This document shows positions 1-51,855 of a stretch of 51,855 bases of DNA, in pieces. The stretch is from sequence record NZ_AP026977.1; one strand, written 5' to 3'. Every line of letters starts with the position of its first letter. Position 1 is the stretch's first letter. The position numbers and the translations under genes were made by a program. The notes below the pieces were generated by a model. It was not told the DNA's origin, did no database searches, and saw only the letters and a program-made list of their open reading frames with translations. This stretch comes from a plasmid.

Positions 1-147
1 CTTCGCCGCGCTGGACTGAGCACGGGAGGCGAACCCGGACTTGGCCGAGCTGCTGCCCGGGTTCTTCGCCGCTGCGGACTGGACTCGGGATGCGGCCGCG
101 GTGGTCATCTTGCCGCCGCTGTGGCCCTTCCCACCAGACTTCGACAT
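1..147 (-). CDS. small Gly/Ser/Lys-rich basic protein (KGG-repeat-like), copy A; start codon at 145-147, 3' end runs off the window
   Basis: Reverse strand reads ATG TCG AAG TCT GGT GGG AAG... = MSKSGGKGHSGGKMTTAAASRVQSAAAKNPGSSSAKSGFASRAQSSAAK. About 90% nt identity to the copy at 4363-4542. RBS GGAAAGGAAG upstream on the - strand. Substitutions between copies are overwhelmingly synonymous in this frame. Confidence 0.5.
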   Translation of the reverse strand, partial: MSKSGGKGHSGGKMTTAAASRVQSAAAKNPGSSSAKSGFASRAQSSAAK

Positions 148-556
148 GACGCACTTCCTTTCCGTACCTCGGCCCCTCCTCCGGGATACGCCCACTGGGC
201 TCAGCGCGCATCCGGATCGGTTCCCGCTGAAGAAGCTTCAGTCACGCTGAATACGCACGGTTCGCGCGAGCAAGTTATGGCCCGTGGGGTCCACCGCCAA
301 CGGAACTGGCGGTTAGCCGCTACCGCACATAGTGTCCGGAGTCGGCGCGGCCACGTCGCGGCATTCGCCCAGGTCGTAGGCGGAGTTACCGCACATAGGC
401 CGCAGCTATGCGCGATAACCCGCTACCGCCAGTTTTCGCAGAAATGGACTGGAACCCGGGAAGGTCGCAGGTCAGGGCGCTGCGCATCTCACAAGCGCCA
501 GATCTCGGGAATCTGGACCCCATGGGCCGTCTACACCCGGGCAGCTCGGTGAGCTG

Positions 557-680
557 CTGGGTTGTCGTTCCGCCCCATCCCCTTCGTACGCAGGCTTCCG
601 ATTTCTCGACCACCCTCACTCTGCGTACCTGGAGCGAGGGTGGTCGAGAAACCGGGGATAGGGCGGAACGACAACCCAGG
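557..680. repeat. nested inverted repeat (cruciform or structured-RNA-like): outer 26-bp arms, inner 13-bp arms
   Basis: CTGGGTTGTCGTTCCGCCCCATCCCC (557-582) pairs with GGGGATAGGGCGGAACGACAACCCAGG (654-680). Inner arms CTCGACCACCCTC / GAGGGTGGTCGAG. CGTACGCAG / CTGCGTACC is also present. Confidence 0.45.
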
Positions 681-788: not shown

Positions 789-1079
789 TCAGGCCAGCTC
801 GGGCCACCCGCCAGGGTTGTTTGCGTTGGCCGGCCAGTCACAGTAATTGGCTTGCGGGTTCCAATTCAGGCCGGGCGGACACGACTGCAGGACCCACTGA
901 CCGGCGTTGCACTGGTAGTACTTCGTCGGGTCAGGGGCGGGGGCGTAGCCAGAGGTACAGGATTGGGCACGGTTGAGTCCGGCGTGGTCGGCGAGGGCCG
1001 AGGGTGCGGCGGCGAGCGTGAGACCGAAACCGAGCAGCAGTGCGGCGGCGGGTGGGGCAAGGACGCGGGCGAGTCGCAT
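789..1079 (-). CDS. small secreted protein with peritrophin-A / CBM14-like chitin-binding domain
   Basis: Internal Met start gives MRLARVLAPPAAALLLGFGLTLAAAPSALA (signal peptide), then CTSGYAPAPDPTKYYQCNAGQWVLQSCPPGLNWNPQANYCDWPANA. This matches the CBM14 consensus C..G.Y..P.D...YY.C..G......CP.GL.FN.....CDWP.N. The upstream part of the 177-aa ORF looks non-coding. Confidence 0.6.
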   Translation of the reverse strand: MRLARVLAPPAAALLLGFGLTLAAAPSALADHAGLNRAQSCTSGYAPAPDPTKYYQCNAGQWVLQSCPPGLNWNPQANYCDWPANANNPGGWPELA

Positions 1080-1516
1080 GGTCGTCTTCTTCCGGTGAGG
1101 TGCAGGGCCGTTCCGATCATGACATCGGCTGGGCGGACACGAGTGTGGGCGCGCCGCGCCGGCGGCTGGAAGGCGGAGGTCCAGGCGTCCGCGTCGGGTT
1201 GAAAACGGCCTGCGCCGGGACAGATTGGATGTCCGGATACATCTACCGCATCCTGATAGCGAAATCCTTGCTCTCCCATACGGCCCGTGGGGTCCATCTG
1301 CGCGAAACCTGGCGGTAGCCAACGGGATAGCGCTCTGACCAGGGATGTTTCTAGCGGCCAGTCCAAATCTGCGAAATCTGGCGCTAGCGCGCTATCGCGC
1401 ATAGGTTCCGAACTATGTGCGGTAACCCTTATGCCGACCTGGGGAAACGACTCTTCCCGGGGTGCGACGACTCCGGAAATTATGTGCGGTAAGGCTTACC
1501 GCCAGATCTGACGGAC

Positions 1517-3202
1517 TTGGACCCCGCGGGCCAACTCCTCGTCAAGTCCGAACAGGGCCAGGCCCGCGCCGAGGCCCGCCTGCAGGCGAGGCGGCAGGAC
1601 AATCCGACGGCGGCCGTTGCGGCGCTGGCCGATGCGCTGATGTGGCACCCCAACTCCGAAATCGCCACCAAGCACCTGCGCCAGCTCACCTACGACTACG
1701 CCGAGCAGTGGGGCGTGCTCATCGACGCCGAGAACTTCAGCGTCAGCATCGACCCGGACTTCGATGGGGTCGCTGCGCAAGACCACGCCGAGGCATGGCG
1801 GCTGTTCGACCGTGAGTCCGCCGTGATGGACATCGTGTCCGCCATGCCGCTGCTGGACACCGCGAAGGATGCTGCGATGCAGGCCATTTCGGTATGGCGG
1901 GGAATCGGGATCTCCCCGGCCGATCCACGGGCGCATCTGCGCGATGAGGCGACGCGCCGGGATCACCTGAGCTTCGATCTGGCGGCGGCGAAGCTGCCCG
2001 AGCCCGACCGGGCCCGTGTCGAGTTCGTCGTGGACTACCTGCGTGGGAACACCGCCGACGTCGACCTGCTCGACAGCCCGGTCCTCGTCGACCCGGGTGA
2101 GGAGGCCCGTGGGCGGGTGCCGCGTCTGCTGGAGTTGTTCGCGAGCAACCCGAAGGCCGCGTCGGTGGTGGGCGAGGAGATCTCGGTCATGACCGCCGCC
2201 GACCAGGACCGGGTCCGCCAGGCCGGGAAGCAGATCGCCCGAGGTGGTGAGGTCGATTTCAGGCTGTGGCCCGATCACATCGACCGCTACGAGCTCGCCG
2301 AAGCACTCGCCGATTACGCCGCCGATTTCGGCGAATTGCGCAGCGTGGCCGACTATCTCGCCGACGACGGCTATAGCGCGGAGGAACGTGAGCGGCTCGG
2401 CGCGAACGACATTCCGGGCGTCACCGACGAGACCAGCGACCGGATCACCCGCCTGGCGCAGCAGCGTGAACAGCTGCGCGCCACGATCCAGACCAGCAAG
2501 GGGCTGGCCGCCGTGGAACGTGCCCAGCTCTCAGCTGTGCTCGCCGACATCGACACCGGAGCCATCCGCGACCACAAGCAGCTGCCGGAGCTGTTGTTCG
2601 CTGACGAGCGCACCAAAGCCGACGCGGACGTCGTTCGTGTCGGTGTGCCCGCGTCCCGGCTCTCGGCCGCGACCCGGGAAGCGATCACCCAGCGCATCGA
2701 GGCGTCCGGCATCGCACCCCAGGGCTGGGATGCCGAACGCCTCAAGGGCGCTGTGTCAGCGATCGGGGATTCGCTCTACACCGTGGCCTGCGGCGCCCGC
2801 GGCAACGGCGGCATCGAGGCCGAACGCAAGTCCTACGCCGACAAACGCGCCCGCCTGGGCACGCAGCTGGCCAAGGCGGGCGTCGGTGAGGAGGCACGAA
2901 CCGAGATACGGGAGCTGATCGACGAGCGGGCCCGCCAGGCCGGGGAATTGGGCAAGACCGCCGCGCAGCGCAAGCAGCAGTGGAAGGCCAAGCTCGATCA
3001 CGCCGTCGCCGCCCGCAACGACTCCATCGCCCAGCGCCAGGCCGCAGCCGCCGGCCGCGCATCGGGCTCCGGGCGAGCCCGCGCACCCCGGCCCGACCGG
3101 GATCCCGCCCAGGAGGCTCACGTGCAGGCCCAGGCCCGCGCTCAAGCCCAGACGCGGGCCGCCGGGCGTCGTGAGCTGCACTCGCCGGAGATCGGGCGAT
3201 GA
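1517..3202 (+). CDS. paralog 1 of a ~450-aa helical domain family (homologous to the primase C-terminus and to 48999-51221); TTG start, N-terminally truncated relative to its paralog, possibly a decaying copy
   Basis: Shared blocks LADALMWHPNSE / SVSIDPDF / VDPGEEARGRV / AKLPEPDRARVEFVVDYLRGNTADVDLL / RLWPDHIDR align with 49366-51221 (~50% identity) and with primase residues ~470-900. In-frame stop at 1490; first start is TTG. Confidence 0.5.
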   Translation: MDPAGQLLVKSEQGQARAEARLQARRQDNPTAAVAALADALMWHPNSEIATKHLRQLTYDYAEQWGVLIDAENFSVSIDPDFDGVAAQDHAEAWRLFDRESAVMDIVSAMPLLDTAKDAAMQAISVWRGIGISPADPRAHLRDEATRRDHLSFDLAAAKLPEPDRARVEFVVDYLRGNTADVDLLDSPVLVDPGEEARGRVPRLLELFASNPKAASVVGEEISVMTAADQDRVRQAGKQIARGGEVDFRLWPDHIDRYELAEALADYAADFGELRSVADYLADDGYSAEERERLGANDIPGVTDETSDRITRLAQQREQLRATIQTSKGLAAVERAQLSAVLADIDTGAIRDHKQLPELLFADERTKADADVVRVGVPASRLSAATREAITQRIEASGIAPQGWDAERLKGAVSAIGDSLYTVACGARGNGGIEAERKSYADKRARLGTQLAKAGVGEEARTEIRELIDERARQAGELGKTAAQRKQQWKAKLDHAVAARNDSIAQRQAAAAGRASGSGRARAPRPDRDPAQEAHVQAQARAQAQTRAAGRRELHSPEIGR

Positions 3203-3642
3203 CCCGCATCGACCCCTCGAACACCCTTCCCACCATGGCATTCGGAGACATCACCATGACCCGCACCGACGAACCCACCCCCGACACCGCCGCACTGGAG
3301 CGTCACCAGCGGACCGTGACCCGCATGTCGACCTCACGCGGGAGCCTGCTCACCGCACTGCTGGGGCCGACCGAACTGCTCGCTCCGCGTCACCAGGAGG
3401 TCATCGACCACACCGCCCAGAACATCGAGTTCGCCCTGTGGCGGGTCGCCTTGGTCTCGGACACGGCCGAGAGTATGGCGCTGTATCACCGTTCCCGGAT
3501 CGAACTCACCGCAGTGCTCACCTGCGCCGGGATCACCGCGGCAGCGTTGAACGCGATCAACATGCTGCTCACCGACTGGGTCCGCGAAGCCGAACTCCTC
3601 GCCACCCACGCACCCGCACCGGAACCGGTGGTGGCGCGGTGA
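3199..3642 (+). CDS. hypothetical protein (147 aa), translationally coupled (ATGA overlap) to the upstream gene; absent from the second module
   Basis: ORF with high GC3; start overlaps the stop of 1517-3202. No recognisable domain. Confidence 0.45.
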   Translation: MTRIDPSNTLPTMAFGDITMTRTDEPTPDTAALERHQRTVTRMSTSRGSLLTALLGPTELLAPRHQEVIDHTAQNIEFALWRVALVSDTAESMALYHRSRIELTAVLTCAGITAAALNAINMLLTDWVREAELLATHAPAPEPVVAR

Positions 3643-3944
3643 CCGACACCGAAGCCGTCGACTTGCACGTCATCGCCCGCCTCGACGATCCCGCTGGTGC
3701 GGTCGCCGATCTCTACTCCTGCGAGCTGTTCTACAGCGACGACGGCAGCGTCTACGGCCGACACGTCAGCTGCCGGTGGGAATCCATTCCTACCGAACCG
3801 GGTGCGGCGGCCAGCCTCGACGCGCTCGATCAGGCGCTCGCCGCCGCCGGGTACATCCGCACCGGCGAGTGGCGGCGTAAGACCACCAGTTCCGGCGCGG
3901 TGCGGTACTTCACCGTCGCCACGATCCGAATCGAGGGCATCTGA
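3639..3944 (+). CDS. conserved hypothetical protein (101 aa), paralog of 51218-51526; GTG start overlapping the upstream stop (GTGA)
   Basis: VTDTEAVDLHVIARLDDPAGAVADLYSCELFYSDDGSVYGRHVSCRWES...RTGEWRRKTTSSGAVRYFTVATI is ~90% identical to the copy at the window end. Confidence 0.6.
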   Translation: MTDTEAVDLHVIARLDDPAGAVADLYSCELFYSDDGSVYGRHVSCRWESIPTEPGAAASLDALDQALAAAGYIRTGEWRRKTTSSGAVRYFTVATIRIEGI

Positions 3945-4300
3945 TGAAGACAACACCGCAGGGAACCAGGCAGCGTGTGCTCGCTGTGTGGTGGCGCGGC
4001 CTGCGTCACGAGGTCGTGCACGCGCGGCGGTTGCGGCGGGCGCTGCTGTGCGCCGAGCTGAGCGTGCGGGGTGTGGCGCACGCCAGCGGCGGGGACGCGG
4101 TCACCGTGCGTGTGGACGGGCTGTGGTTCGACGTGTACGCCTGGCTGCGCGACGACGCCGGTTTGACCTGGGTGGTCGACCACCCGCACGCCGAACTCGA
4201 CGACGAGCACCCTGGCCGCGAGATCGGTCGTTGCGGCGGCTTCCGCTTTCCCCTCGACCAGTTGCCGGTGATGTGGGCGCGCTACCGAGGTACCGACTGA
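3944..4300 (+). CDS. hypothetical protein (118 aa); ATG overlaps the upstream stop (TGATG)
   Basis: ORF in operon context, followed 4 nt later by a very strong hairpin. Confidence 0.4.
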   Translation: MKTTPQGTRQRVLAVWWRGLRHEVVHARRLRRALLCAELSVRGVAHASGGDAVTVRVDGLWFDVYAWLRDDAGLTWVVDHPHAELDDEHPGREIGRCGGFRFPLDQLPVMWARYRGTD

Positions 4301-4303
4301 GCA

Positions 4304-4362
4304 CCCAGTAGGCAGGGCAGCCCCGGAACCCGCAACGTTCCGGGGCTGCCCTGTGTACTGGG
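4304..4362. terminator. bidirectional terminator-like hairpin (~25-bp interrupted stem, 7-nt loop) between convergent genes
   Basis: CCCAGTA-G-CAGGGCAGCCCCGGAAC ccgcaac GTTCCGGGGCTGCCCTG-TG-TACTGGG. A near-identical copy lies at 51763-51821. Confidence 0.6.
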
Positions 4363-4542
4363 CTACTTCTTCCCGCCGCTCTTACCGCTGCCGGACTTCG
4401 CCGCGCTCGACTGAGCACGGGAAGCGAACCCGGACTTCGCTGAGCTGCTGCCCGGGTTCTTCGCCGCCGCGGACTGGACTCGGGACGCGGCTGCAGTGGG
4501 CATCTTGCCGCCGCCGTGGCCCTTCCCGCCTGACTTCGACAT
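4363..4542 (-). CDS. small Gly/Ser/Lys-rich basic protein (KGG-repeat-like), copy B, 59 aa
   Basis: MSKSGGKGHGGGKMPTAAASRVQSAAAKNPGSSSAKSGFASRAQSSAAKSGSGKSGGKK. Strong RBS GGAAGGAG 6 nt upstream. Against copy A there are 10 synonymous and 2 nonsynonymous differences in this frame. Confidence 0.65.
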   Translation of the reverse strand: MSKSGGKGHGGGKMPTAAASRVQSAAAKNPGSSSAKSGFASRAQSSAAKSGSGKSGGKK

Positions 4543-4610
4543 GATGCACTCCTTCCCTACTTCGGGCCCCTCCTCCGGAATACACCGGCCTGCCCTGGCC
4601 TTCACAGCAG

Positions 4611-4643
4611 TGTGCCCCGGCGGATACGAGCCGCCGGGGCACA
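4611..4643. terminator. hairpin (13-bp stem) downstream of the - strand methyltransferase gene
   Basis: TGTGCCCCGGCGG atacgag CCGCCGGGGCACA. Confidence 0.45.
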
Positions 4644-4659
4644 CTCTTGTCGAGCAGGG

Positions 4660-6411
4660 TCAGGCAATCGCCTCCGCCGTGTGGAGGATGGCCCGCAGCC
4701 GAGACCCGATCCACGTACCCACAGACGGGCTCACGGCGTTGCCGAACCCGTCGCACTGATCCCTGGCCGACCCCCAGACGATGAACTCGCCCTCGTGCCC
4801 GGGGAAGGTGGTGTCGAATCCGCACCCCCTGCCGACCTCGTGCGGGCCGAGCATCCGGAAGAAGCAGTCCTCCACCGACAGATCCGTCAGCGCCGCGACC
4901 CATTCCGCGGTGAGCAGTCCGGGGATCTGCTCGGAGGTCACGGTCGGCATCGGCTCGGCGCTGAGGGTCGGGGTGGTGTTCTTCCGGAACGGAATGACAC
5001 CGGACATCAAGCTCAGGGTCTCCGAGGCGAGTGTCGTCGGTAGCGGCTCGGACACCCCGCGTGGGGCGCCTTGGTAGTTGTTCACCGACGCGAACAGCAT
5101 CGCCAGCTCATGGGTCGAGGTGACCGTGTCCATGGGCTGGCTGAGGTGTTTGCCGTCGCCGTTGTGCCGGTGCGCGGCGAACACCGCCCCAGTCGCGAGC
5201 GCCACCGGTGGAGTGACCAAACCCGTGGTGTTGGTGGCGGTCTGCGCCCACAGCGGCTGGCTGAGATCACGAGTCCGGCACTCCGATCCGGGCCGCTCGA
5301 ATGTGTTCCCAGCCGCGACCATGATGGCCCCGGTCGACAGGATCGCGGTCTCCTGCTGGCTGGTTTGCGTCACCAATGGCTGCCACGGGTGACGCTCCGA
5401 CCCGTGGACAGATTTGGCTGGCATGAGGATTGCCGGGAACTCGGCGAACCTCATGCGGCAGCGCTCGATCCGCGCCATCGTCGTCGGCCGGAGCGGCTTC
5501 GCCCGGTCCCCAATGCGGGTGCCCAGATTGGTGAGGTCCAGGGCGTGCAGTGACGGGGTCATCGGTGGGACCACCTCGCGGCGGCACCGTGGGCACCGGT
5601 AGTTGTACTGGGTGCCGTAGCGCACGGCCCCGGACAACGGCACCCCGGTCTTCCACGACCAGACCGCCTCCACGACGTCGTCGCAGGTGTGGCAGCGCGT
5701 CAGCGGGCGGTGGTCCAGGTCCGGGGTAGGCAGATGCCGGTCCCAGAATGCGATGTAGAGCCGGTCTCTGCTTTGCGGCACCCCGAAGAACATGGAGTTG
5801 AGCCGCATCTCCCGGTAGCGGTAGCCCAGGATCTCGAACTGCCGCAGCCACCAGCGGTAGGTGGAGCCGTCACCGATCTTGGTCTTGCCCGGGATCGCCG
5901 GGCCCCACGACACCAGTTCGGTGGTGCACTCGACGAGGATCAGCCGCGGGTGATGCTGGGCGGCGTAGTGCAGCACGCAGTTCGCGGTGGCCCGGTCGCG
6001 CTCGCTGCGAGTGACCCTCGCCTGGAACTCCGGGTCCTCCATTTCGAACAGAGTCAGGCCCTGCTCGTAGGCCTTGACCGTGTTCGCCTGCGAATGGTTC
6101 ACACACGAGACACCCGCAGCGAGGAGATCGGCGGCAGGCAGGTCACGCGCCGAGTGATAATCCGACGACTCCGGATCGACGAGATCGGCGATCCAGTGCT
6201 CGGCGTGCGGGTTGTTCCGCTCGTGAACCCGGATCTTGTACTCGTTGTGGTTGGCGGCCATGATCGTCGTGAATCCGGCGTCTTCGATGCCCCGGGTCAG
6301 CCCGCCGAACCCGCTGAAAAGGTCGACCGCAACGAGATCGTCGTGACGGAAACGGCGCCGCCGCGTGGCCGGTCGATGCACAGCGGTCCGAAGCTTCGTA
6401 GGCACGGTCAT
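4660..6411 (-). CDS. DNA (cytosine-5)-methyltransferase family protein (583 aa)
   Basis: Motif I DLFSGFGGLTRGIEDAGF. Motif VIII-like GVPQSRDRLYIAF. Large C-terminal region presumably a target-recognition domain. Confidence 0.65.
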   Translation of the reverse strand: MTVPTKLRTAVHRPATRRRRFRHDDLVAVDLFSGFGGLTRGIEDAGFTTIMAANHNEYKIRVHERNNPHAEHWIADLVDPESSDYHSARDLPAADLLAAGVSCVNHSQANTVKAYEQGLTLFEMEDPEFQARVTRSERDRATANCVLHYAAQHHPRLILVECTTELVSWGPAIPGKTKIGDGSTYRWWLRQFEILGYRYREMRLNSMFFGVPQSRDRLYIAFWDRHLPTPDLDHRPLTRCHTCDDVVEAVWSWKTGVPLSGAVRYGTQYNYRCPRCRREVVPPMTPSLHALDLTNLGTRIGDRAKPLRPTTMARIERCRMRFAEFPAILMPAKSVHGSERHPWQPLVTQTSQQETAILSTGAIMVAAGNTFERPGSECRTRDLSQPLWAQTATNTTGLVTPPVALATGAVFAAHRHNGDGKHLSQPMDTVTSTHELAMLFASVNNYQGAPRGVSEPLPTTLASETLSLMSGVIPFRKNTTPTLSAEPMPTVTSEQIPGLLTAEWVAALTDLSVEDCFFRMLGPHEVGRGCGFDTTFPGHEGEFIVWGSARDQCDGFGNAVSPSVGTWIGSRLRAILHTAEAIA

Positions 6412-7959: not shown

Positions 7960-8670
7960 CTAGGGCGGTGTGAAACCGTCTGGCCACTGTGTAGTGAGGT
8001 CGTAGATGATGCGGGTGAGGTCCGTGCGGGTGAGGTTCGCGCCCCTGAGATCCGCACCGGTGAGATTCGCGCCGGTGAGGTTCGCGCCAGTGAGGTTCGC
8101 AGCACCGAGCAAGGTGTTGATGAGGTTCGCGCCGGTGAGGTCGGCATCGGTGAAATTCGAGTACGGGATGAAAGCATGGGTGAGGTTCACCGAGGCGAGG
8201 TTCGCGCGGGTGAAGTCCGCGTGGGAGAGCATCACCTCGGAGAAGTCGCCTCCCGCCAGGCAGGTCAGGCGTAGGTCCAGCTTGTCGGCGAGGGGTTCGG
8301 GACCCAGGACGCGACGTGTGATGACAGTCAGTACCGCCTGGATATCGGCGGGCATCGGTTGCAGGGGGCTCTGTGTTCGGCATTCGCCCGCGTTCGTGTG
8401 CGTGCGCAGGAACGCTGAAAGCATCGCGAAGACGGTCGGGTGATCGGCGGGGGAGTCTTTGGCGAGCCGCTCCAGCAAGTAGATACCCGACAGGCGGACA
8501 TCGACCTTGTCGGAGGCAAGTTGTTCGGCCGCCAGGCGAAAGCGGTCGGTCACCGCGGTTTGCTGCGATAGGGAATACTGGCTGTTCGTCGCGCGCAGAG
8601 ACTGCGCAGTGAACCACAGAGCACCAGCGGCGGTGAGCGTCGCACCGAGCGTGGCCACTGTCGTAGCCAT
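7960..8670 (-). CDS. pentapeptide-repeat protein with N-terminal transmembrane segment (start assumed at internal Met; ORF extends to 8802)
   Basis: C-terminal A(N/D)LTGANLTGANLTGADLRGANLTRTDL repeats. MATTVATLGATLTAAGALWF hydrophobic segment. Confidence 0.6.
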   Translation of the reverse strand: MATTVATLGATLTAAGALWFTAQSLRATNSQYSLSQQTAVTDRFRLAAEQLASDKVDVRLSGIYLLERLAKDSPADHPTVFAMLSAFLRTHTNAGECRTQSPLQPMPADIQAVLTVITRRVLGPEPLADKLDLRLTCLAGGDFSEVMLSHADFTRANLASVNLTHAFIPYSNFTDADLTGANLINTLLGAANLTGANLTGANLTGADLRGANLTRTDLTRIIYDLTTQWPDGFTPP

Positions 8671-9291
8671 TGCCGCTACTTTCGTCCACCCCGACCAATG
8701 CAGTAATCGACCAGCTCGGGATGCTCGGGGCGCGGGGGGCCTCAGCGAACGTCCCCGGCCTGCGACTAGACCGCGCCGCGATGTCGTTCCCCCCGTGCCC
8801 ATGCGTCATCTCCTTCGAAAGCGCCTGCCACTCCGATAGTCAGGATCGTGCACTCGCTTGGCCGACTCGCGAGGAGGATCCGGGTACTCACTTCGTTCCA
8901 ACGGCGTGAGATACCCCTGGCCACTATGTCCAAACTTCTTGCCCAACCGCACCAGTTGCCGGGTGTCGAGAATCGTTCGGTTTTCGGACACTCGACACCC
9001 AGCGCCAAAGGCGCGGAATACCAGCGCATCGCGTTGTCCAAGAAGCGTGTCCAGCCGCGAGGGAAGCGAGGTCGGGCCCGGGCGGGTGGTCGTAACGTCA
9101 CCGGACCCAACACATCAGCCTGAAGCGGGTGCCGAGGACGGCCTGCAGACCGTCGAGGCCCGTCGCTCTACGCGGAGCGACGGGCCTCGATGCACAGACG
9201 CGGCTGCGCTACGCGAATGGCTTGATCATCCGCGGGATGTAGCTCTGGACCGGTTGGTAGTCCTCGTCACCCGGGCGCTTCCGGAACGGAG

Positions 9292-11327: not shown

Positions 11328-11464
11328 GGTAGGCAGGACGGCATTGCTCATTGCGCGGGCCCCGAGAGGCCTTGGCCGACTCTGTCATCCGGGGGCGTGG
11401 GCATCGGTGACTGCGCGAACGGCGGTACGCGTCTGGCCGTGACCGCTCAACGATAGCAGTGATA

Positions 11465-11491
11465 CCCCGGATAATGGCCTGTTATCCGGGG
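11465..11491. other. dif/core-type inverted repeat CCCCGGATAA-N7-TTATCCGGGG upstream of the tyrosine recombinase gene (a degenerate extra half-site lies at 11543-11557)
   Basis: Two 10-bp arms around a 7-nt spacer. Confidence 0.4.
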
Positions 11492-11578
11492 TAACATCGG
11501 AGCCGTGCTGCGGCGACCGCGCTGCCGCGCAGCACGAACCGGCCCCGTTATCCGGGGCAAGCCAGGAGAGGCGGGACG

Positions 11579-12586
11579 ATGGCGGCGAAGGTGACCCGGC
11601 TGCCCACCCCGCCGGCGCGCACTCTGCGCTCCGCGGCCGAGGCGTTCCTGGACACCATCGGATCGCCCAACACCCGCCGCGCCTACGGCATCGCGATCGT
11701 CAAGACCGTCGACGCCCTCGACGGGCCCGGCCCCGACGGACTGATCGGGCGCTCTCGCGCCCTGGACTCGGTCACCGACGCCGAGATCGGCGCGGCGCTG
11801 GAATCGCTGTGGGGCCAAGCTGCGGTCAACACATGGAACTCCCGGCGCGCCGCGGTCGGCAAATGGCTGAGCTGGTGCGCCGAACAAGGCTGGGACGCCC
11901 CGAAACTGCCCGCCTCGGCCGCACGGTCGACCCCGCCGGACTCCGAGACCCCGGTGCGCTCGCGCACCGCGATCGACCGGCTCATCGCCCGCCGCGAGGT
12001 CCATGTGCGGGAGAAGACGCTGTGGCGGATGCTGTATGAAACATGCGCTCGCGCAGAGGAACTGCTCCAGCTCAACATCGAAGACCTGGACCAGGCGAGC
12101 CGGTGCGCCCGGGTGAAGTCCAAGGGCGCCAAACCCCGCACCCGCCGTCGCGGGCCCGCCCACCACGAACACGTCCTCGAGATCGTGTACTGGGACGCGG
12201 GCACCGCCCGGCTGCTGCCCAGGCTGCTGCGCGGCCGCACCCGTGGACCGGTGTTCGTGACCCACCGCCGGCCAGGGCCCGGCAAGTACCTCGCCGACCG
12301 CGATGTCTGCCCCGATACCGGGCTGGCGCGGCTGTCCTACGACCAGGCCCGCGATCTGCTCGACGCCGCCACCGCGATCGATGGTCCCGGCACCGGCTGG
12401 GACCTGCACGAACTCCGCCATTCGGGCCTAACCCACCTCGGGGAATCCGGGGCCAGCCTGCTCGAACTGATGGCGAAATCCCGGCATCGCAAGGCCGAGA
12501 ACCTGCGCCGCTACTTCAAACCGTCACCACAGGCGATGCGCGATCTCACCGCGCTGCTCGGCCCGGGAGCCGACCGCCGACGCTGA
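11579..12586 (+). CDS. tyrosine site-specific recombinase (phage integrase / Xer family)
   Basis: C-terminal catalytic signature ...[40 protein letters not shown] (R..HxxR..Y). Confidence 0.85.
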
Positions 12587-22978: not shown

Positions 22979-23209
22979 CTATGAGAACAGCACGATCAGG
23001 CCGAAGATCACCACCGCGGGCGGCACCAGCCACAACCACCGCATATCCAGCGGGCGCGCCAGCTCCATCACGCCCGCCCGCTCCAGCTCGACCAGGCGCT
23101 GCACCGCGCGCAGCTCCGCAGGCGTGATCGGCTGCCGGTACGGGCAATACGAGACGTAGTGCCACCCGACCAGGCATCGCGAGCAGGTGTACCGGTACGG
23201 GTACTGGGT
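22979..23209 (-). CDS. small zinc-finger protein with C-terminal TM helix (77 aa)
   Basis: MTQYPYRYTCSRCLVGWHYVSYCPYRQ...MRWLWLVPPAVVIFGLIVLFS. Confidence 0.4.
   Translation of the reverse strand, partial: TQYPYRYTCSRCLVGWHYVSYCPYRQPITPAELRAVQRLVELERAGVMELARPLDMRWLWLVPPAVVIFGLIVLFS
22991..23043. repeat. direct repeat copy 2 (inside the 3' end of the 22979-23209 gene)
   Basis: See 22234-22292. Confidence 0.45.
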
Positions 23210-23319
23210 CATCGCCGCGCCTCCCCTGTGCCACCGCGCGGGCCCGGCCTCCGGTGGCGGGCACCGTCTCGGTGTGGTGAGCGTAGCGGCTCTCCCCGAC
23301 CCGAATCGGCGAGTCGGTC

Positions 23320-23511
23320 TCAGGCCGCGAGGTCGAACAGCGTCAGCGCTTGCTCTTGCCGCGCGGCCGCGTCGAGCAGCTCGGCGCGCTCGCGCACCGC
23401 GCACGTCGGCCCGATTCCCTGTGCGACCGAGTGCTGCGACAGCAGCCAGCCGCCGCAGCGGCGGCAGTGCGCGACGAGTCGCAGCGTGGGCTGAGCGTCG
23501 GTGTCGGCCAT
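23320..23511 (-). CDS. small zinc-ribbon protein (63 aa)
   Basis: MADTDAQPTLRLVAHCRRCGGWLLSQHSVAQGIGPTCAVRERAELL... Confidence 0.35.
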   Translation of the reverse strand: MADTDAQPTLRLVAHCRRCGGWLLSQHSVAQGIGPTCAVRERAELLDAAARQEQALTLFDLAA

Positions 23512-23574
23512 GTCTTTCCCCTCCGGCCGCGAGTGGCAAGTACGGCCGCAGCCTGACACGAGGCACCGACACGT

Positions 23575-23760
23575 GCTCGCCCGAACTCCGCAACCACTCC
23601 CGCAATCTAACTCCGAACTCCGCAACCTACATCCGAACAGAACACCCATCGCTCATCCCCCAATCCCAGGTCACAGCCACGTCTCAACCACCCCTTACAC
23701 CTCTTGCACTGAGGTAACGAACAGATAACGAACAATGGTGTGGGCGTACCGTAGATAACG
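23575..23760. promoter_or_regulatory. repeat-rich region upstream of the relaxase: oriT candidate
   Basis: Direct repeats CCGAACTCCGCAACC at 23581 and 23613. AACGAACAGATAACGAACAA, with the GATAACG motif x3. Confidence 0.4.
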
Positions 23761-23762
23761 TG

Positions 23763-28508: not shown

Positions 28509-28529
28509 GGCGTGGGTCACCTCACTCAG

Positions 28530-28572
28530 GCTGCCGCGCCCTCCCTCACGGGAGGGCTTGCCACACAACCCC
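28530..28572. repeat. direct repeat copy 1 (GCTGCCGCGCCCTCCC...CTTGCCACAC.ACAACCCC) with internal hairpin CCCTCCC tcac GGGAGGG
   Basis: Related copy at 28890-28940. The two flank a small - strand gene. Confidence 0.4.
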
Positions 28573-28591
28573 GACCGCGCCGTAGGTCAGA

Positions 28592-28777
28592 TCAGGATGA
28601 GCCCCGAGCCCCGCAGCAGTCCTCGCAGTAGTGCACCGGATCCAGGCCCTCGCCGGGGTATGTCGCGGACGGTTCGTCAGTGGCGTCCTCCAACTCGTCA
28701 TCCCAACCGGAGATGAACTCCCGGCCGCAGCCACCACACACCCAGACCCACGGATCAGTATCGACAATCTCGCTCAT
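28592..28777 (-). CDS. small acidic zinc-ribbon protein (61 aa)
   Basis: MSEIVDTDPWVWVCGGCGREFISGWDDELEDATDEPSATYPGEGLDPVHYCEDCCGARGSS. Confidence 0.35.
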   Translation of the reverse strand: MSEIVDTDPWVWVCGGCGREFISGWDDELEDATDEPSATYPGEGLDPVHYCEDCCGARGSS

Positions 28778-28889
28778 ACCTCTACCTGTACCGTGCGACG
28801 CGGTCTGTCGGGCTGGTCTCCACACGCGCAGTGTGAACCAGGCACCAGGTGAGATGGTCCCGCCGATGTCCCGGACCGCCGCGAATTGG

Positions 28890-28940
28890 GCTGCCGCGCC
28901 CTCCCCCCCAGCGGGGATGCCTTGCCACACCACAACCCCC
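28890..28940. repeat. direct repeat copy 2
   Basis: See 28530-28572. Confidence 0.4.
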
Positions 28941-28947
28941 GGGTCGG

Positions 28948-32645: not shown

Positions 32646-32888
32646 ATGACTGCATCGCATGGGGAGCGCGCCGACGAGTTGGCGGCGCAGGCGAATCGGG
32701 AACTCGAACAGGCGCTGGCCTCCAGCGCGGACCTGCTCGACGGTGGGTGGGCGAACTACTCCGGGACCGGCAGGGAGTCCGCCGACAGGGTCATGTGGGA
32801 GCGGATACGCGCGCTACAGGCCCAGGCGCAGATCCACGCGGACCCTGGCCCTCAACGACACACGTACGCGGGTAATGTCCTGACATGA
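32646..32888 (+). CDS. possible small protein (80 aa)
   Basis: ORF in an otherwise empty intergenic stretch. Weak RBS. Confidence 0.3.
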   Translation: MTASHGERADELAAQANRELEQALASSADLLDGGWANYSGTGRESADRVMWERIRALQAQAQIHADPGPQRHTYAGNVLT

Positions 32889-32945
32889 CGAGACCCCGGC
32901 AGCCAGCTACTGCCGGGGTCTCGTCGTCGGTGTGCAGGTGCGGCG

Positions 32946-34868: not shown

Positions 34869-34927
34869 CAGGAGGAACCTTTCTCTGTGGTGTCGCGGAT
34901 CGCGGGGCTGGTCGGTGCTGTGGCCCG

Positions 34928-48985: not shown

Positions 48986-48998
48986 ACAGCTCGATCAG

Positions 48999-51221
48999 AT
49001 GACCGCCGTACACGACCCTCAGCAGCCCGACACCTTCGCGTGGCGGGCTGCTCCGGCTCACCTGAAAACCCGCCGCCAACTGCGTGCGGCGGGCCTGCGC
49101 CCGAACGGCCAGGAACCGGCCGCGCTGATGGTTCGTGAGCCCACGGGCCGCAAGCGCCGGTTGTGGGCCTACCTGTTCGACGTCGGCAAAGCCGCACCCA
49201 AACGCACCGCCAGCGCGGCTCAGCTCGCCGCCGTCGAGAAGGCCGTCCGCGAGCACCAGGCCCGCGCCGCCGAACGGCGCGGCATCGCCCGCGAAGAGCT
49301 CACCCAACCCACAGATCCGGGGCCGGGCTGGACCGACCCCACAACCCATCAGGAGGAAAACCCTATGTCCGACAACATCACTGCCCCAGGCGGCGAGGCC
49401 GCTACCAGAGAAGACCCGGCCGGGCAGCAGCCGCAGCTGGGTGCGCCGGCCGGGCACGGCCAACGCGTCGCGTACCTGCTGGCCACCGTCGCAGCCAACC
49501 AAGCCCGCGAGCGGTCGGCCAAGGTCGATGCCGCGATCGGGCGGGCCGAACGCGGCGAGGACGCCGATTGGGATCTGGAACCGAAAATCCGCGAAGCGAT
49601 GTCCCAGGCGGAAACCCGGCTCGAGAACATCCCGTGGCAGAACCGCGCCGCTATGGTCGCCTCGCTGGCTGATGCTCTGGTGTGGAGCCATGATTCGGAG
49701 CTGGCCCAGCAGCGCCTCGACGAGCTGACCAATTCCTACGCGTTGAGCTGGGGCGTGCTCATCGACCCCTACGACCTCACCGTCAGCATCGACCCGGACT
49801 TCGAGGCCGAGCACTTCCAGCGATACGCCGAGGCGGCGAGTGTGTGGGATCGCGAGTCCGCGGCGATCGACATCGTGGCCGCGCTGCCGATGCCCGAGGC
49901 CGCGAAGGAAGCTGCGGTTCAGGCGGTGATGGCGTGGCGCGGTCCCGAGGTCGACCCGCTGGATCCCGAGGAGCATCGGGTCAGCCAGACTCGGCGCCGC
50001 GAGCAGCTCGACGTCGACCTGGACGCCGCCCGGCTCACCGCCGAGGACCGCGCCCGGGTGGAGTTCGTGGTGGATTACCTGCGCGGGGAAACCTCGCGGG
50101 TGGATCTGCTGACCAGTCCGGTGGTCGTGGACCCGGGTGAGGAAGCCCGCGGCCGGGTGGCGGCGCTGCTGGAGCAGTTCGCGAACAACCCGAAAGCCGC
50201 TCGTGAGGTCGGCAAGCAGATCTCGGTGCTGACCGACGCCGACCAGGAACGCGTCCGCGACGTTGGCCGCGCCATCCAGGCGGGCCAGGCGGTCGATTTC
50301 GAGGTGTGGCCCGGCTACGTCAACCGCGAACAGTTCCGGGAAGCGCTGGTGGAGTACGCCGACGACGCTGCCGAGCTGCGCAGCATGGCCGACTACCTCG
50401 CCGAAGGCCATCTCACCGCCGCGGAGCAGGCTCGCCTCGGTGCGGTCGTCGGCACGATCACCGACGACACCAACCAGCAGATCACCCGCATGGCCACCCA
50501 GCGGGAACAGCTGCTCGACCAAGCCCGCCACGGCCATGGGCTCACCTCGATGGAGCGCGCACAGATCGTGTGCACGATCGAGGACATCGACGCCGGGGTG
50601 ATCCTCGGGCACGAGGAACTGCCGGAGCTGCTGTGGGCCGACGAGCGTACCAAGGCCAGCGTCGATTTCGCGCGCACCGCTGAGCCCGCCGCCGACCTGT
50701 CGAACAGAACACGCCGCCAGATCACCGAGCTGGTCGACACCGCCAGCACCGCTGCCCCGCACAGCCGCGAGGACCAGCGGCTGCGGTTCGAGGTGTCCTC
50801 GATGACCGATTCCCTGTTCAGCGTGGCCACCGGATCGCCAGGAACCAGCGTGGAGCTGGACCGCCAGCAGTACACGATCAAACGCACTGAGCTGGGCAAG
50901 GCCCTGGCCCGCGCGGGCGTGGATTCGGACATACAGCAGCGGATCCGGACTCTCGTCGATGACCGCGCCCGTCAGGCCGGGGAACTCGGCCGCGGTGCTG
51001 CCGCTCGCCGCCAGCAGTGGAGGGACAAGTCCGCCAACGTTGTCGCCGCACGTGACGACGCGATCGCCCAGCGCCAGGCAGCGGCCGCCGACCGCAGCCC
51101 CAGCCCGCGCTCGGGACGCACCTGCGCGAGCAGGCCCGACCGGACGGCCCAAGCCGCTTCGCCTGCCCCAGCCCGTTCGGCAGCACGGCGGCCGGTGCAC
51201 ACGTCGGGGGTGGAGCGGTGA
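48999..51221 (+). CDS. paralog 3 of the helical domain family (741 aa if started at 48999; strong internal RBS AGGAGG before an ATG at 49366)
   Basis: Open, high-GC3 frame from 48999. Blocks LADALVWSHDSE / SIDPDF / VDPGEEARGRV / FEVWPGYVNRE shared with the primase C-terminus and with 1517-3202. Confidence 0.55.
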   Translation: MTAVHDPQQPDTFAWRAAPAHLKTRRQLRAAGLRPNGQEPAALMVREPTGRKRRLWAYLFDVGKAAPKRTASAAQLAAVEKAVREHQARAAERRGIAREELTQPTDPGPGWTDPTTHQEENPMSDNITAPGGEAATREDPAGQQPQLGAPAGHGQRVAYLLATVAANQARERSAKVDAAIGRAERGEDADWDLEPKIREAMSQAETRLENIPWQNRAAMVASLADALVWSHDSELAQQRLDELTNSYALSWGVLIDPYDLTVSIDPDFEAEHFQRYAEAASVWDRESAAIDIVAALPMPEAAKEAAVQAVMAWRGPEVDPLDPEEHRVSQTRRREQLDVDLDAARLTAEDRARVEFVVDYLRGETSRVDLLTSPVVVDPGEEARGRVAALLEQFANNPKAAREVGKQISVLTDADQERVRDVGRAIQAGQAVDFEVWPGYVNREQFREALVEYADDAAELRSMADYLAEGHLTAAEQARLGAVVGTITDDTNQQITRMATQREQLLDQARHGHGLTSMERAQIVCTIEDIDAGVILGHEELPELLWADERTKASVDFARTAEPAADLSNRTRRQITELVDTASTAAPHSREDQRLRFEVSSMTDSLFSVATGSPGTSVELDRQQYTIKRTELGKALARAGVDSDIQQRIRTLVDDRARQAGELGRGAAARRQQWRDKSANVVAARDDAIAQRQAAAADRSPSPRSGRTCASRPDRTAQAASPAPARSAARRPVHTSGVER

Positions 51222-51526
51222 CCGATACCGAAGTCGTGGATCTGCACGTCATCGCCCGCCTCGACGACCCTGCCGGTGGGGTCGCCGATCTCTACTCCTG
51301 CGAGTTGTTCTACAGCGACGACGGCAGCGTCTACGGCCGTCACGTCAGCTGCCGGTGGGAATCCGTTCCCGCCGCCCCGGGCGCCCCGCTCAGTCTCGAC
51401 GCGCTCGACGACGCGCTCACCGCCGCCGGGTACACCCGCACCGGCGAGTGGCGGCGCAAGACCACCAGCTCCGGCGCGGTGCGGTACTTCACCGTCGCCA
51501 CCATCGGAATCGAGGACATTCAGTGA
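51218..51526 (+). CDS. conserved hypothetical protein (102 aa), paralog of 3639-3944; GTG start overlapping the upstream stop
   Basis: ~90% aa identity to the first-module copy. Confidence 0.6.
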   Translation: MTDTEVVDLHVIARLDDPAGGVADLYSCELFYSDDGSVYGRHVSCRWESVPAAPGAPLSLDALDDALTAAGYTRTGEWRRKTTSSGAVRYFTVATIGIEDIQ

Positions 51527-51759
51527 ACACCCGCCACCTGGCCGCCGCCGTGATCGGCATGGCCATCGCCACCCTCACGGCCGACCCGGCACCCGCGTCC
51601 AACCCGCCGGCGCCGGTCGTCACCAGTGATTTCGACCGGTACCCGGTCGACACACCCTGTGCCCTGGGCCCTGGGCCGCTGGGGCGGATCGTCGATGCCG
51701 GGCGCGGACATCACATCTGCGAGCAGCGCATTCCCGGCAGCAGCTCCTACTACGAGTAG
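51523..51759 (+). CDS. small secreted protein (78 aa; GTG start overlapping the upstream stop)
   Basis: VNTRHLAAAVIGMAIATLTADPAPA signal-peptide-like N-terminus. Cys-containing mature part. Confidence 0.4.
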   Translation: MNTRHLAAAVIGMAIATLTADPAPASNPPAPVVTSDFDRYPVDTPCALGPGPLGRIVDAGRGHHICEQRIPGSSSYYE

Positions 51760-51762
51760 ATT

Positions 51763-51821
51763 CCCAGTAGACAGGGCAGCCCCGGAACACGCAACGTTCC
51801 GGGGCTGCCCTGCGTACTGGG
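51763..51821. terminator. second copy of the giant bidirectional hairpin
   Basis: CCCAGTA-G-ACAGGGCAGCCCCGGAAC acgcaac GTTCCGGGGCTGCCCTG-CG-TACTGGG. Confidence 0.6.
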
Positions 51822-51822
51822 C

Positions 51823-51855
51823 CTACTTCTTCCCGCCGCTCTTGCCGCTGCCGGA
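51823..51855 (-). CDS. small Gly/Ser/Lys-rich basic protein, copy C (only the last ~10 codons plus stop lie inside the window)
   Basis: Reverse strand ...TCC GGC AGC GGC AAG AGC GGC GGG AAG AAG TAG differs from copy B by one synonymous change. Confidence 0.4.
   Translation of the reverse strand, partial: SGSGKSGGKK

What the first reader, a model, noticed from the sequence alone, without database searches (positions are those of the whole stretch)
4304..4542. Triplicated module: conserved tiny Gly/Ser/Lys-rich basic protein gene followed by a ~25-bp-stem hairpin
The same ~240-bp unit occurs at 1-147 (partial), 4304-4542 and 51763-51855 (partial). Each has a 59-aa protein, MSKSGGKGHGGGKM..KSGGKK, and a very stable hairpin. 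Across copies the nucleotide differences are about 10 synonymous to 2 nonsynonymous in the - strand frame. Purifying selection therefore acts on this tiny disordered basic protein, not on the antisense ORFs the 6-frame track proposes. The composition resembles KGG-repeat stress proteins or histone-like tails. Each copy terminates a convergent operon that ends in members of the paralogous helical-domain family.
Basis: seen in the sequence. Interest (0 to 1): 0.6.

Follow-up and report, generated by a model that had tools for sequence, protein, structure and literature searches.

The report
Duplicated tiny SMP-like gene plus terminator hairpin
A circular Nocardia-type conjugative plasmid carries two (not three) diverged copies of a real 59-residue basic protein gene, a single-repeat relative of plant "seed maturation" stress proteins, each followed by a long hairpin wedged between convergent genes; it is a genuine but fairly ordinary feature.

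Summary
The repeat is real, but it has two copies, not three. The pieces at 51763-51855 and 1-147 are the two halves of one copy split by the linearisation point of a circular 51,855-bp conjugative plasmid.

- **Gene:** each copy holds a 59-aa ORF on the - strand. It has a strong Shine-Dalgarno site and 11 synonymous versus 2 non-synonymous differences (dN/dS 0.05).
- **Family:** about 337 representative clusters, mostly 45-110 aa, all labelled hypothetical. It is not KGG or histone-like. The family consensus passes Pfam SMP (PF04927, 32 bits against a cut-off of 22), but the window proteins themselves score only 12-14 bits.
- **Predicted fold:** AlphaFold2 gives a confident helical-hairpin core with floppy Gly/Ser/Lys tails.
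- **Hairpin:** 26-nt arms, about -57 kcal/mol. It fills the gap between convergent stop codons. Pairing is kept by compensatory changes in four other Nocardia loci. It has no T-tract.
- **Context:** copy B sits in the arrangement conserved across Nocardia elements, at the end of the T4CP-DUF4913-Toprim-~740 aa-~101 aa transfer operon. Copy A ends an older, mosaic paralogous block.

The function is inferred only: a hydrophilin-like stress protectant. This is a new member of a known kind, of modest interest.

The parts
4363..4542 (-). Copy A coding sequence: 59 codons plus TAG. The ATG is at 4542-4540 and the stop at 4365-4363.
   Evidence: Translation and dN/dS. An identical protein and gene call is present on Logan contig L002.
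4543..4586 (-). Copy A conserved 5' leader. GGGAAGGAG (4557-4549) is a Shine-Dalgarno site 6 nt before the ATG. The conserved GGTGTATTCCGGAGGAGGGG segment presumably holds the promoter -10 region or the transcript start (inferred).
   Evidence: Conserved between both copies and in L001, L003, L004, L005, L007, L008, L010 and L025. No sigma-70 consensus was found.
4304..4362 (.). Hairpin A: arms 4304-4329 and 4337-4362, with a 7-nt loop. It starts 3 nt after the TGA of the + strand gene 3944-4300 and ends directly at the TAG of the small gene.
   Evidence: Compensatory changes are seen in relatives.
1..147 (-). Copy B coding sequence, 5' part (codons 1-49). The ATG is at 147-145.
   Evidence: It continues into 51823-51855 across the circular junction.
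51823..51855 (-). Copy B coding sequence, 3' part (codons 50-59 plus TAG at 51825-51823).
148..192 (-). Copy B conserved 5' leader with its Shine-Dalgarno site (GGAAAGGAAG).
51763..51821 (.). Hairpin B: arms 51763-51788 and 51796-51821. It starts 3 nt after the TAG of the + strand gene 51523-51759.
   Evidence: It matches hairpin A at 56 of 59 positions.
51218..51526 (+). 102-aa protein, the penultimate gene of the transfer operon convergent with copy B. Its paralog is the 101-aa protein at 3639-3944.
   Evidence: 88% aa identity between the paralogs. The DNA stretches 3626-3940 and 51205-51519 are 89% identical. Orthologs abut the hairpin in L003, L005 and L008. No Pfam hit.
3639..3944 (+). 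101-aa paralog of the 102-aa protein, in the block convergent with copy A.
3944..4300 (+). 118-aa ORF, the last gene before hairpin A. It is unrelated to the gene in the equivalent place at copy B.
   Evidence: No similarity by BLASTP or blastn. No Pfam hit.
51523..51759 (+). 78-aa ORF with a hydrophobic N-terminus, the last gene before hairpin B. Its start overlaps the preceding stop (GTGA).
   Evidence: Frame plot and translation. A partial homolog is present in L007. No Pfam hit.
1517..3202 (+). 561-aa protein, a paralog of the 744-aa protein at 48987-51221 and of the C-terminal part of the Toprim protein at 46133-48985.
   Evidence: 52% identity, E 1e-159; and 31% identity, E 2e-27. No Pfam hit.
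48987..51221 (+). Protein of about 744 aa in the transfer operon (T4CP 43543-45393, DUF4913 45348-46133, Toprim 46133-48985, this gene, then the 102-aa gene). The exact start codon was not determined.
   Evidence: Synteny is conserved in L003, L004/L027, L005, L008 and L030.
4604..4650 (.). Separate hairpin downstream of the Dcm gene (4660-6411, - strand). It bounds the upstream side of copy A's promoter region, so the small gene is likely to be its own transcription unit.

Best explanation
**What it is.** The module is a stand-alone, monocistronic gene for a 59-residue, very basic protein (net charge +11, no acidic residue). The protein is a divergent single-repeat member of the SMP ('seed maturation protein', LEA D-34 type) domain family.

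**Expression signals.** The gene has its own conserved leader of about 45 nt with a strong ribosome-binding site. A 26-bp G+C-rich hairpin follows it directly. This hairpin fills the 62-63 nt between the small gene's stop codon and the stop codon of a convergent + strand operon.

**How it most likely works.**
- The hairpin most likely serves both strands as a transcript-end structure. It would act as a U-tract-poor intrinsic terminator and/or a 3'-end stabiliser, keeping the convergent transcription units apart.
- The protein most likely acts as a small hydrophilin. A short helical hairpin core flanked by flexible Gly/Ser/Lys tails would protect cellular components under water or heat stress, as proposed for SMP/LEA proteins.

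**Where it sits.**
- The replicon is a circular 51.9-kb conjugative plasmid of a Nocardia-like actinobacterium.
- Copy B occupies the position conserved in several Nocardia conjugative elements, at the end of the WhiB/T4CP-DUF4913-Toprim-~740 aa-~101 aa operon.
- Copy A ends a partial, mosaic paralog of that block. It is older than a recent in-plasmid duplication.

**Status of each step.**
- Shown: gene reality, purifying selection, family membership at the profile level, hairpin stability and covariation, synteny, and the copy number of two.
- Inferred: termination, promoter, and protein function.
For: - **Two copies on a circle:**
- **Coding:** 11 synonymous to 2 non-synonymous differences, dN/dS 0.05. 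dN/dS is 0.03-0.39 across nine Nocardia copies. The sense frame is open in all homologs and the antisense frames are not. Shine-Dalgarno sites are conserved. A homolog is annotated as a CDS in Nocardia asteroides plasmid CP082845.1.
- **Family size:** 13 close homologs. A profile search found 337 representatives at E <= 1e-3, mostly 45-110 aa.
- **SMP link:** the window proteins score 11.9 and 13.6 bits. 13 of 15 close homologs give weak hits. 23 of 60 relatives hit at E < 0.01, the best at 1.6e-31. Two-repeat relatives pass the cut-off. The family consensus scores 32.3 bits against a cut-off of 22, E 1.3e-7. UniRef names P0001 an 'SMP domain-containing protein'.
- **Fold:** helices at 16-28, 33-37 and 39-55, with core pLDDT 85-91.
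- **Hairpin:** -56 to -59 kcal/mol, z -8 to -11. 8 of 26 pairs show changes on both sides and 96% of cells are paired, against 30-47% when the partners are slid. Similar hairpins with 15-20-bp stems and 6-7-nt loops sit at 4604-4650, 9153-9190, 11460-11496 and 32887-32925.
- **Plasmid nature:** TrwC relaxase, a MobA-like relaxase, T4CP, Toprim and DUF4913.
- **Synteny:**
- **Copy A is not a recent duplicate:** dS between A and B is 0.30, but between B and L003 it is 0.15. Block identities are mosaic: 67%, 89%, none, 91%.
- **SMP-family LEA proteins linked to stress protection and client binding:** PMC7412488.
Against: - There are no transcript, 3'-end or peptide data.
- No T/U-tract follows the hairpin on the small gene's strand. 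On the + strand there is only a pyrimidine-rich CUACUUCUUCCC. The consensus terminator scan found nothing.
- No recognisable sigma-70 promoter was found.
- The window proteins themselves fall below Pfam's SMP cut-off, at 12-14 bits against 22. They carry one repeat, whereas characterised plant SMP proteins carry several.
- No bacterial member of the family has a tested function; every source name seen is 'hypothetical protein'.
- The repeated placement next to a conjugative-transfer operon and the extreme basicity could point to a nucleic-acid-related role instead.
- Other Nocardia copies carry a different hairpin. The hairpin is therefore not an obligatory part of the gene module.
Confidence: 0.6

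Rival explanations
1. The small basic protein is a nucleic-acid-binding accessory of the conjugative element rather than a general stress protectant. It might coat or condense plasmid or transferred DNA, or assist the relaxosome, primase or T4CP. Its link to the transfer operon would then be functional.
For: - Net charge is +11, pI about 12, with no Asp or Glu, and the tails are Lys/Gly/Ser-rich.
- The gene lies convergent to the T4CP-DUF4913-Toprim-~740 aa-~101 aa operon in this window, L003, L004/L027, L005, L008 and L030. A TrwC gene is nearby in L014, and the context is partly kept in L007 and L009.
- It is kept in two copies here, each beside a paralog of the ~740-aa protein.
Against: - The family is broad: 337 representatives, including Streptomyces, Micromonospora, Chloroflexi and fungi.
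- Close Nocardia homologs also sit in plainly non-conjugative contexts (L028, L031).
- Some members are strongly acidic, with net charge down to -15, yet keep the same core.
- The gene is a separate, oppositely oriented transcription unit, not part of the operon.
- There is no Pfam hit to any DNA-binding family.
Confidence: 0.15
2. The long palindrome is primarily a DNA-level site, either a recombination or cassette boundary or a protein-binding inverted repeat. On this view it mediated the mosaic duplication and the swapping of the small terminal ORFs next to it, and it is not an RNA terminator.
For: - Homology between the two blocks resumes exactly at the hairpin (4304 / 51763). It follows an unrelated segment, 3941-4303 versus 51520-51762.
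- That segment is absent in L003, L005 and L008, where the ~101-aa gene ends about 18 nt from the hairpin.
- These are the longest, most stable hairpins in the plasmid.
- There is no T-tract.
Against: - Arm sequences change while pairing is kept at 8 of 26 pairs. This favours selection on structure, not on a recognised sequence.
- The palindrome fits precisely between two stop codons.
- Other gene ends in this plasmid and in related loci carry analogous but unrelated long hairpins.
- Apart from one weak partial match (82% over 45 nt, E 3e-3) in a Paenarthrobacter plasmid, the hairpin alone found nothing among 72,556 plasmids. It does not look like a dispersed element.
Confidence: 0.1
3. The 59-codon ORF is not a gene. 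On this view the conservation reflects an antisense ORF or a non-coding element.
For: - One antisense frame shares wobble positions with the ORF and shows a similar count of 10 synonymous to 3 non-synonymous.
- GC3 cannot separate the two frames.
Against: - That antisense frame has a stop in both copies. No antisense frame is open across homologs, and L014 has stops in all three.
- The sense protein is conserved from 49% to 75% GC.
- The Shine-Dalgarno site and ATG are conserved.
- A profile search finds hundreds of similar small proteins.
Confidence: 0.02

Closest known systems
SMP / 'seed maturation protein' domain, Pfam PF04927 (plant LEA D-34 group, e.g. MtPM25, AtSMP1, GmPM28)
   Same: - The core motif is shared: M-T-x-x-AASRIQSA-x-A-x-NP...SGFA-x-RAQSAAA-x-N.
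- The family consensus matches profile positions 17-58 of 59 at 32.3 bits, above the cut-off of 22.
- Two-repeat and seven-repeat relatives found with the family profile pass Pfam's cut-off.
- Composition is hydrophilic and rich in Ala, Ser and Gly.
   Different: - It has a single repeat of 59 aa, whereas plant proteins have several repeats and about 170-260 aa (own knowledge).
- The window proteins themselves score only 11.9 and 13.6 bits.
- It is extremely basic and lacks acidic residues.
- It is bacterial and plasmid-borne.
- No expression or function data exist.
Intrinsic (factor-independent) bidirectional terminators between convergent genes, including the U-tract-poor 'I-shaped' hairpins described in high-GC actinobacteria (own knowledge)
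   Same: - A G+C-rich perfect stem with a 7-nt loop sits directly after two convergent stop codons.
- It is stable on both strands.
- Pairing is kept by compensatory changes.
   Different: - The stem is unusually long, at 24-26 bp.
- There is no U-tract on the small gene's strand, and the consensus scan does not call it.
- Termination has not been shown.
   Same: Both are small, hydrophilic, Gly/Lys-rich, putative stress proteins.
   Different: There is no Pfam KGG hit even at E <= 10. The conserved core is the SMP-like AASRIQSA...RAQSAA motif, not KGG repeats.
The homologous 59-aa hypothetical protein UAK36138.1 on Nocardia asteroides FDAARGOS_1485 plasmid CP082845.1
   Same: It is 98% identical in protein sequence, 92.6% in DNA, and has the same leader.
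   Different: Its 3' flank carries two other hairpins, and its neighbours differ: a Tn3 transposase and a recombinase. It is present as a single copy in the stretch examined.

Membership tests
SMP domain (Pfam PF04927) | The protein matches the Pfam SMP HMM at or above the gathering score of 22 bits. | tested here: not met
   Copy A scores 11.9 bits (E 0.29) and copy B 13.6 bits (E 0.09).
SMP domain (Pfam PF04927) | The protein family, taken as a profile or consensus, is homologous to the SMP repeat. | tested here: met
   The consensus of 48 small homologs scores 32.3 bits, E 1.3e-7, over profile positions 17-58 of 59. 13 of 15 close homologs give weak SMP hits. 23 of 60 relatives hit at E < 0.01, the best at 1.6e-31. 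P0021 scores 26.3 bits and P0025 34.8 bits.
SMP domain (Pfam PF04927) | Multi-repeat architecture, as in plant LEA D-34 proteins. | tested here: not met
   One repeat in 59 aa. Some relatives have 2-7 repeats.
SMP domain (Pfam PF04927) | Accumulation or protective activity under desiccation or heat. | not testable with these tools
   No expression or biochemical data are available. The plant literature was consulted only.
KGG repeat stress proteins (Pfam PF10685) | A match to the KGG repeat HMM. | tested here: not met
   No hit at E <= 10 for either copy, and none among 15 and 60 relatives.
Histone-like / nucleoid-associated proteins | A match to any known DNA-binding or histone-like family. 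| tested here: not met
   Pfam, NCBIfam and PHROGs gave no such hit. There is no PDB relative by sequence or by fold.
Intrinsic terminator | A stable G+C-rich stem-loop immediately downstream of the stop codon. | tested here: met
   Stems of 24-26 bp at -56 to -59 kcal/mol, lying 0-3 nt from the stop codons on both strands.
Intrinsic terminator | A U-tract directly 3' of the stem. | tested here: not met
   The scan found no terminator-like sites in 3900-4800. The tails are UGCUCAGU on the - strand and CUACUUCUUCCC on the + strand.
Intrinsic terminator | The structure is conserved by covariation. | tested here: met
   8 of 26 pairs have changes on both sides in 6 sequences, and 0 of 500 shuffles reach the observed value. 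Caveats: the sample is small and the sequences are related. A DNA palindrome would give the same signal.
Intrinsic terminator | Transcript 3' ends at the hairpin. | not testable with these tools
   No RNA data are available.
Known RNA families (Rfam 15) | A match above a family's gathering score. | tested here: not met
   Only generic hairpin matches far below threshold were found, for example miRNA precursors and F6 at 26.7 bits against a threshold of 46.

The most novel reading that the evidence does not exclude
A plasmid-backbone, LEA/SMP-type mini-protein has been recruited by Nocardia conjugative elements as a functional partner of the transfer machinery. It might shield the relaxosome or transferred DNA, or help donor cells survive on dry surfaces where actinobacterial mating happens. 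Its very basic tails would adapt an ancient desiccation-protein repeat to nucleic-acid binding. The two diverged copies would then each serve one paralogous ~560/740-aa protein module.
Probability: 0.12. Interest if true: 0.6.

Novelty: new member of a known kind. Interest (0 to 1): 0.3.

Why it matters
- **Annotation:** this is a cautionary example. Naive ORF and GC3 calling picks the antisense ORF. The real product is a 59-aa protein of a large, wholly uncharacterised bacterial and fungal family of single-repeat SMP/LEA-like mini-proteins.
- **Biology, if the stress role holds:** conjugative plasmids of Nocardia would carry a desiccation or stress protectant as near-backbone cargo. That bears on the persistence of soil and clinical actinomycetes.
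- **Transcription in high-GC bacteria:** the hairpin adds one more covariation-supported case of a long, U-tract-less stem between convergent genes. Whether such stems terminate transcription in high-GC bacteria is still debated.
- **Overall:** none of this is surprising to a specialist.

Tried and rejected
- **tblastn against phages and plasmids:** the 59-aa protein found nothing, probably because of low-complexity masking. The DNA search did find the N. asteroides plasmid copy.
- **Phage origin:** megablast of 23000-31000 against phages found no match. The 1582-aa ORF is a TrwC relaxase, not a tape measure. A phage origin is rejected.
- **PHROGs and NCBIfam:** no meaningful hit.
- **The search for related loci with the 15-sequence alignment:** this failed for lack of a conserved stretch. 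It worked with 6 closer sequences.
- **Copy B look-up:** P0004 is not on record.
- **PDB by sequence and by fold:** nothing useful. The afdb50 library was unavailable.
- **Sigma-70 promoter and T-tailed terminator scan:** none found. I inspected the upstream regions by eye for a SigF/SigB-type GGGTAT -10 or an ECF motif. No pattern was consistent across the family, so no sigma factor is proposed.
- **Rfam:** only sub-threshold hairpin noise.
- **Hairpin as a dispersed repeat:** apart from one weak partial match in a Paenarthrobacter plasmid, it is not found elsewhere in the plasmid collection.
- **Literature:** searches for bacterial SMP-type proteins returned only plant LEA papers, or papers on the unrelated synaptotagmin-like 'SMP' lipid-transfer domain.

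Full report
**1. What is in the sequence**

The stretch 4304-4586 recurs at 51763-51855 continued by 1-192. The two are 90.9% identical over 286 bp, E 2.6e-110. The piece at the window's end (93 bp) and the piece at its start join without gap or overlap. They align colinearly with the internal copy straight through the junction, and the ORF reads through it.

The window is therefore a complete circular molecule opened inside copy B. The module is duplicated, not triplicated.

The replicon is a conjugative actinobacterial plasmid. Its identified genes are:
- a TrwC-type relaxase/helicase (23760-28508);
- a second, MobA/VirD2-like relaxase (28948-31248, - strand);
- a TraG/VirD4 coupling protein (43543-45393);
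- a DUF4913 protein (45348-46133);
- a Toprim protein (46133-48985);
- a Dcm methylase (4660-6411, - strand);
- a tyrosine recombinase (11579-12586).

G+C content is 67.7%. It has no close relative among phages. In PLSDB only short stretches match; the best match for the module itself is a Nocardia asteroides plasmid.

**2. The small gene is real**

Copy A (4363-4542, - strand) and copy B (51823-51855 + 1-147, - strand) each encode 59 residues and differ at two of them.
- The 13 nucleotide differences split 11 synonymous to 2 non-synonymous. dN/dS is 0.05, and the binomial p against random placement is 1e-5.
- Across nine full-length Nocardia copies, every pairwise dN/dS lies between 0.03 and 0.39.
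- One antisense frame shares the wobble positions and shows a similar ratio of 10:3. However, it carries a stop in both copies. No antisense frame stays open across homologs, whereas the sense frame is intact from 49% to 75% G+C.
- A strong ribosome-binding site (GGGAAGGAG, 6 nt spacer) and a leader of about 45 nt are conserved in both copies and in eight Nocardia loci.
- GenBank annotators called the homolog as a CDS on plasmid CP082845.1.

My own crude GC3 gene finder picked the antisense ORF 41-250. This shows why the six-frame view misleads here.

**3. What the protein is**

No KGG (PF10685) or histone-like signal appears, even at E <= 10. The only Pfam signal is SMP, 'seed maturation protein' (PF04927), and it is sub-threshold for the window proteins at 11.9 and 13.6 bits against a cut-off of 22.

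The evidence at family level is stronger:
- 13 close homologs exist, mostly from Nocardia. UniRef names one of them an 'SMP domain-containing protein'.
- An exhaustive profile search finds 337 representatives at E <= 1e-3, nearly all 45-110 aa.
- 13 of 15 close homologs hit SMP weakly. 23 of 60 relatives hit at E < 0.01, the best at 1.6e-31. Two-repeat relatives pass the cut-off.
- The plurality consensus of 48 small members scores 32.3 bits, E 1.3e-7, over SMP profile positions 17-58 of 59.

The family is thus a single-repeat SMP lineage. The window proteins are divergent members whose core reads M-(P/T)-x-x-AASR(V/I)QSAAAKNPGSSSAKSGFASRAQSSAAK.

All source names seen are 'hypothetical protein', and one relative is from a basidiomycete. 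No solved structure is related by sequence or by fold.

AlphaFold2, run with the 48-sequence alignment, predicts helices at 16-28, 33-37 and 39-55. pLDDT is 85-91 in the core and about 54 in the Gly/Ser/Lys tails. The protein is therefore not simply disordered.

Net charge is +11 and pI about 12, with no acidic residue. The family median is +7.5, although some members are strongly acidic.

**4. The hairpin**

- The arms are 26 nt with 24 of 26 positions paired, and the loop is 7 nt.
- Free energy is -56 to -59 kcal/mol on either strand, z -8 to -11.
- The hairpin occupies essentially the whole space between the convergent stop codons. It lies 3 nt after the + strand stop and 0-1 nt after the small gene's TAG.
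- A homologous hairpin follows the gene in L003, L004, L005 and L008. In six sequences, 8 of 26 pairs carry changes on both sides and 96% of cells are paired. This compares with 30-47% when partners are slid, and 0 of 500 shuffles reach the observed values.
- Other Nocardia copies (L001, L007, L010, L025) carry a different pair of hairpins instead. The requirement seems to be 'a strong stem here', not this particular sequence.
- Stems of 15-20 bp with 6-7-nt loops lie at other points of the same plasmid.
- No T-tract follows, and the consensus terminator scan is negative.
- Rfam gives only sub-threshold hairpin noise.

I read it as a shared transcript-end structure for convergent units. Termination is inferred, not shown. 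A DNA-level palindrome function cannot be excluded by covariation alone.

**5. Context and history**

The arrangement around copy B is T4CP, DUF4913, Toprim/~1000 aa, ~740 aa and ~101 aa, convergent with the small gene. It recurs in Nocardia loci L003, L004/L027, L005, L008 and L030, often preceded by a WhiB gene. Other close homologs sit in unrelated chromosomal or mobile contexts.

Copy A ends a partial paralogous block. The correspondences are:

| Segment near copy A | Segment near copy B | Identity |
|---|---|---|
| 1623-3100 | 49663-51143 | 67% |
| 3626-3940 | 51205-51519 | 89% |
| 3941-4303 | 51520-51762 | unrelated |
| 4304-4586 | 51763-192 | 91% |

But the genes that actually abut the hairpins (118 aa and 78 aa) are unrelated to each other.

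Synonymous divergence between copies A and B (0.30) exceeds that between copy B and the copy in Nocardia sp. NPDC057455 (0.15). Copy A is therefore an old duplicate, or it was imported by recombination with a related element. It is not a recent in-plasmid duplication.

**6. Mechanism and rivals**

- *Most likely.* A monocistronic stress-type hydrophilin gene sits at the edge of the transfer region and is insulated from it by a bidirectional hairpin. The protective role is inferred from SMP/LEA homology, for which client binding and stress phenotypes are reported in plants (PMC7412488).
- *Main rival (about 0.15).* A nucleic-acid-binding accessory of conjugation, suggested by the basicity and the recurrent synteny. 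The family's breadth, its acidic members and its non-conjugative contexts weaken this reading.
- *Second rival (about 0.1).* The palindrome is a recombination or cassette boundary, suggested by homology resuming exactly at the hairpin next to a variable segment.

**7. Verdict**

This is a new member of a known kind and of modest interest.

Noticed in passing
window 278-533 and 1280-1533: Two blocks of about 255 bp are 72% inverted repeats of one another. Each is also internally quasi-palindromic and studded with the 12-mer TACCGCACATAG (321 and 387 direct; 1412 and 1481 inverted). They flank a segment of about 750 bp. The block-edge motif CCATAACTTGCTC is conserved about 110 nt upstream of the small gene in L001, L003, L007, L008 and L025. 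This could be an oriT, iteron or partition region, or the ends of a mobile cassette.
   Followed up: partly
window 789-1082 (- strand): A small secreted protein has a signal peptide (MRLARVLAPPAAALLLGFGLTLAAAPSALA) and a CBM_14 Peritrophin-A chitin-binding domain (44 bits, E 2e-11). It also hits CBM_19. To my knowledge CBM_14 is mainly eukaryotic, so it is unusual on an actinobacterial plasmid.
   Followed up: partly
window 557-679: A nested long hairpin lies in the segment between the two palindromic blocks. The outer arms 557-582 / 654-679 are 96% complementary, and the inner arms 598-621 / 632-655 are 92% complementary. Candidates are a structured RNA, a single-strand initiation site or an oriT.
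   Followed up: no
window 23760-28508 (+) and 28948-31248 (-): The plasmid carries two different relaxases: a 1582-aa TrwC/AAA_30 relaxase-helicase and a 766-aa protein with a MobA/VirD2-like nuclease domain.
   Followed up: no
window 1517-3202, 46133-48985 (aa 460-793), 48987-51221: Three paralogous domains of about 350-520 aa have no Pfam match: the 561-aa and 744-aa proteins, and the C-terminal part of the Toprim protein. The family is conserved next to the T4CP/DUF4913 genes in several Nocardia elements.
   Followed up: partly
window 3941-4303 versus 51520-51762; L003, L005 and L008 around 6240-6260 (L005 5010-5030): The slot between the ~101-aa gene and the hairpin is variable. It holds a 118-aa ORF at copy A and a 78-aa ORF with a hydrophobic N-terminus at copy B. 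In three related Nocardia loci it is empty.
   Followed up: partly
window 7960-8802 (- strand): A pentapeptide-repeat protein (74 bits) lies a few kb from copy A, near the Dcm methylase. Proteins of this kind can be quinolone-resistance or DNA-mimic proteins.
   Followed up: no
window 33215-33944: Degenerate internal tandem or direct repeats (68-74% identity) lie inside the 661-aa ORF at 32946-34931 (- strand).
   Followed up: no
L007 and L010 (Nocardia sp. SC052): A second genome also carries two diverged copies of the small gene, on separate contigs. Multiple copies per strain are therefore not unique to this plasmid.
   Followed up: no
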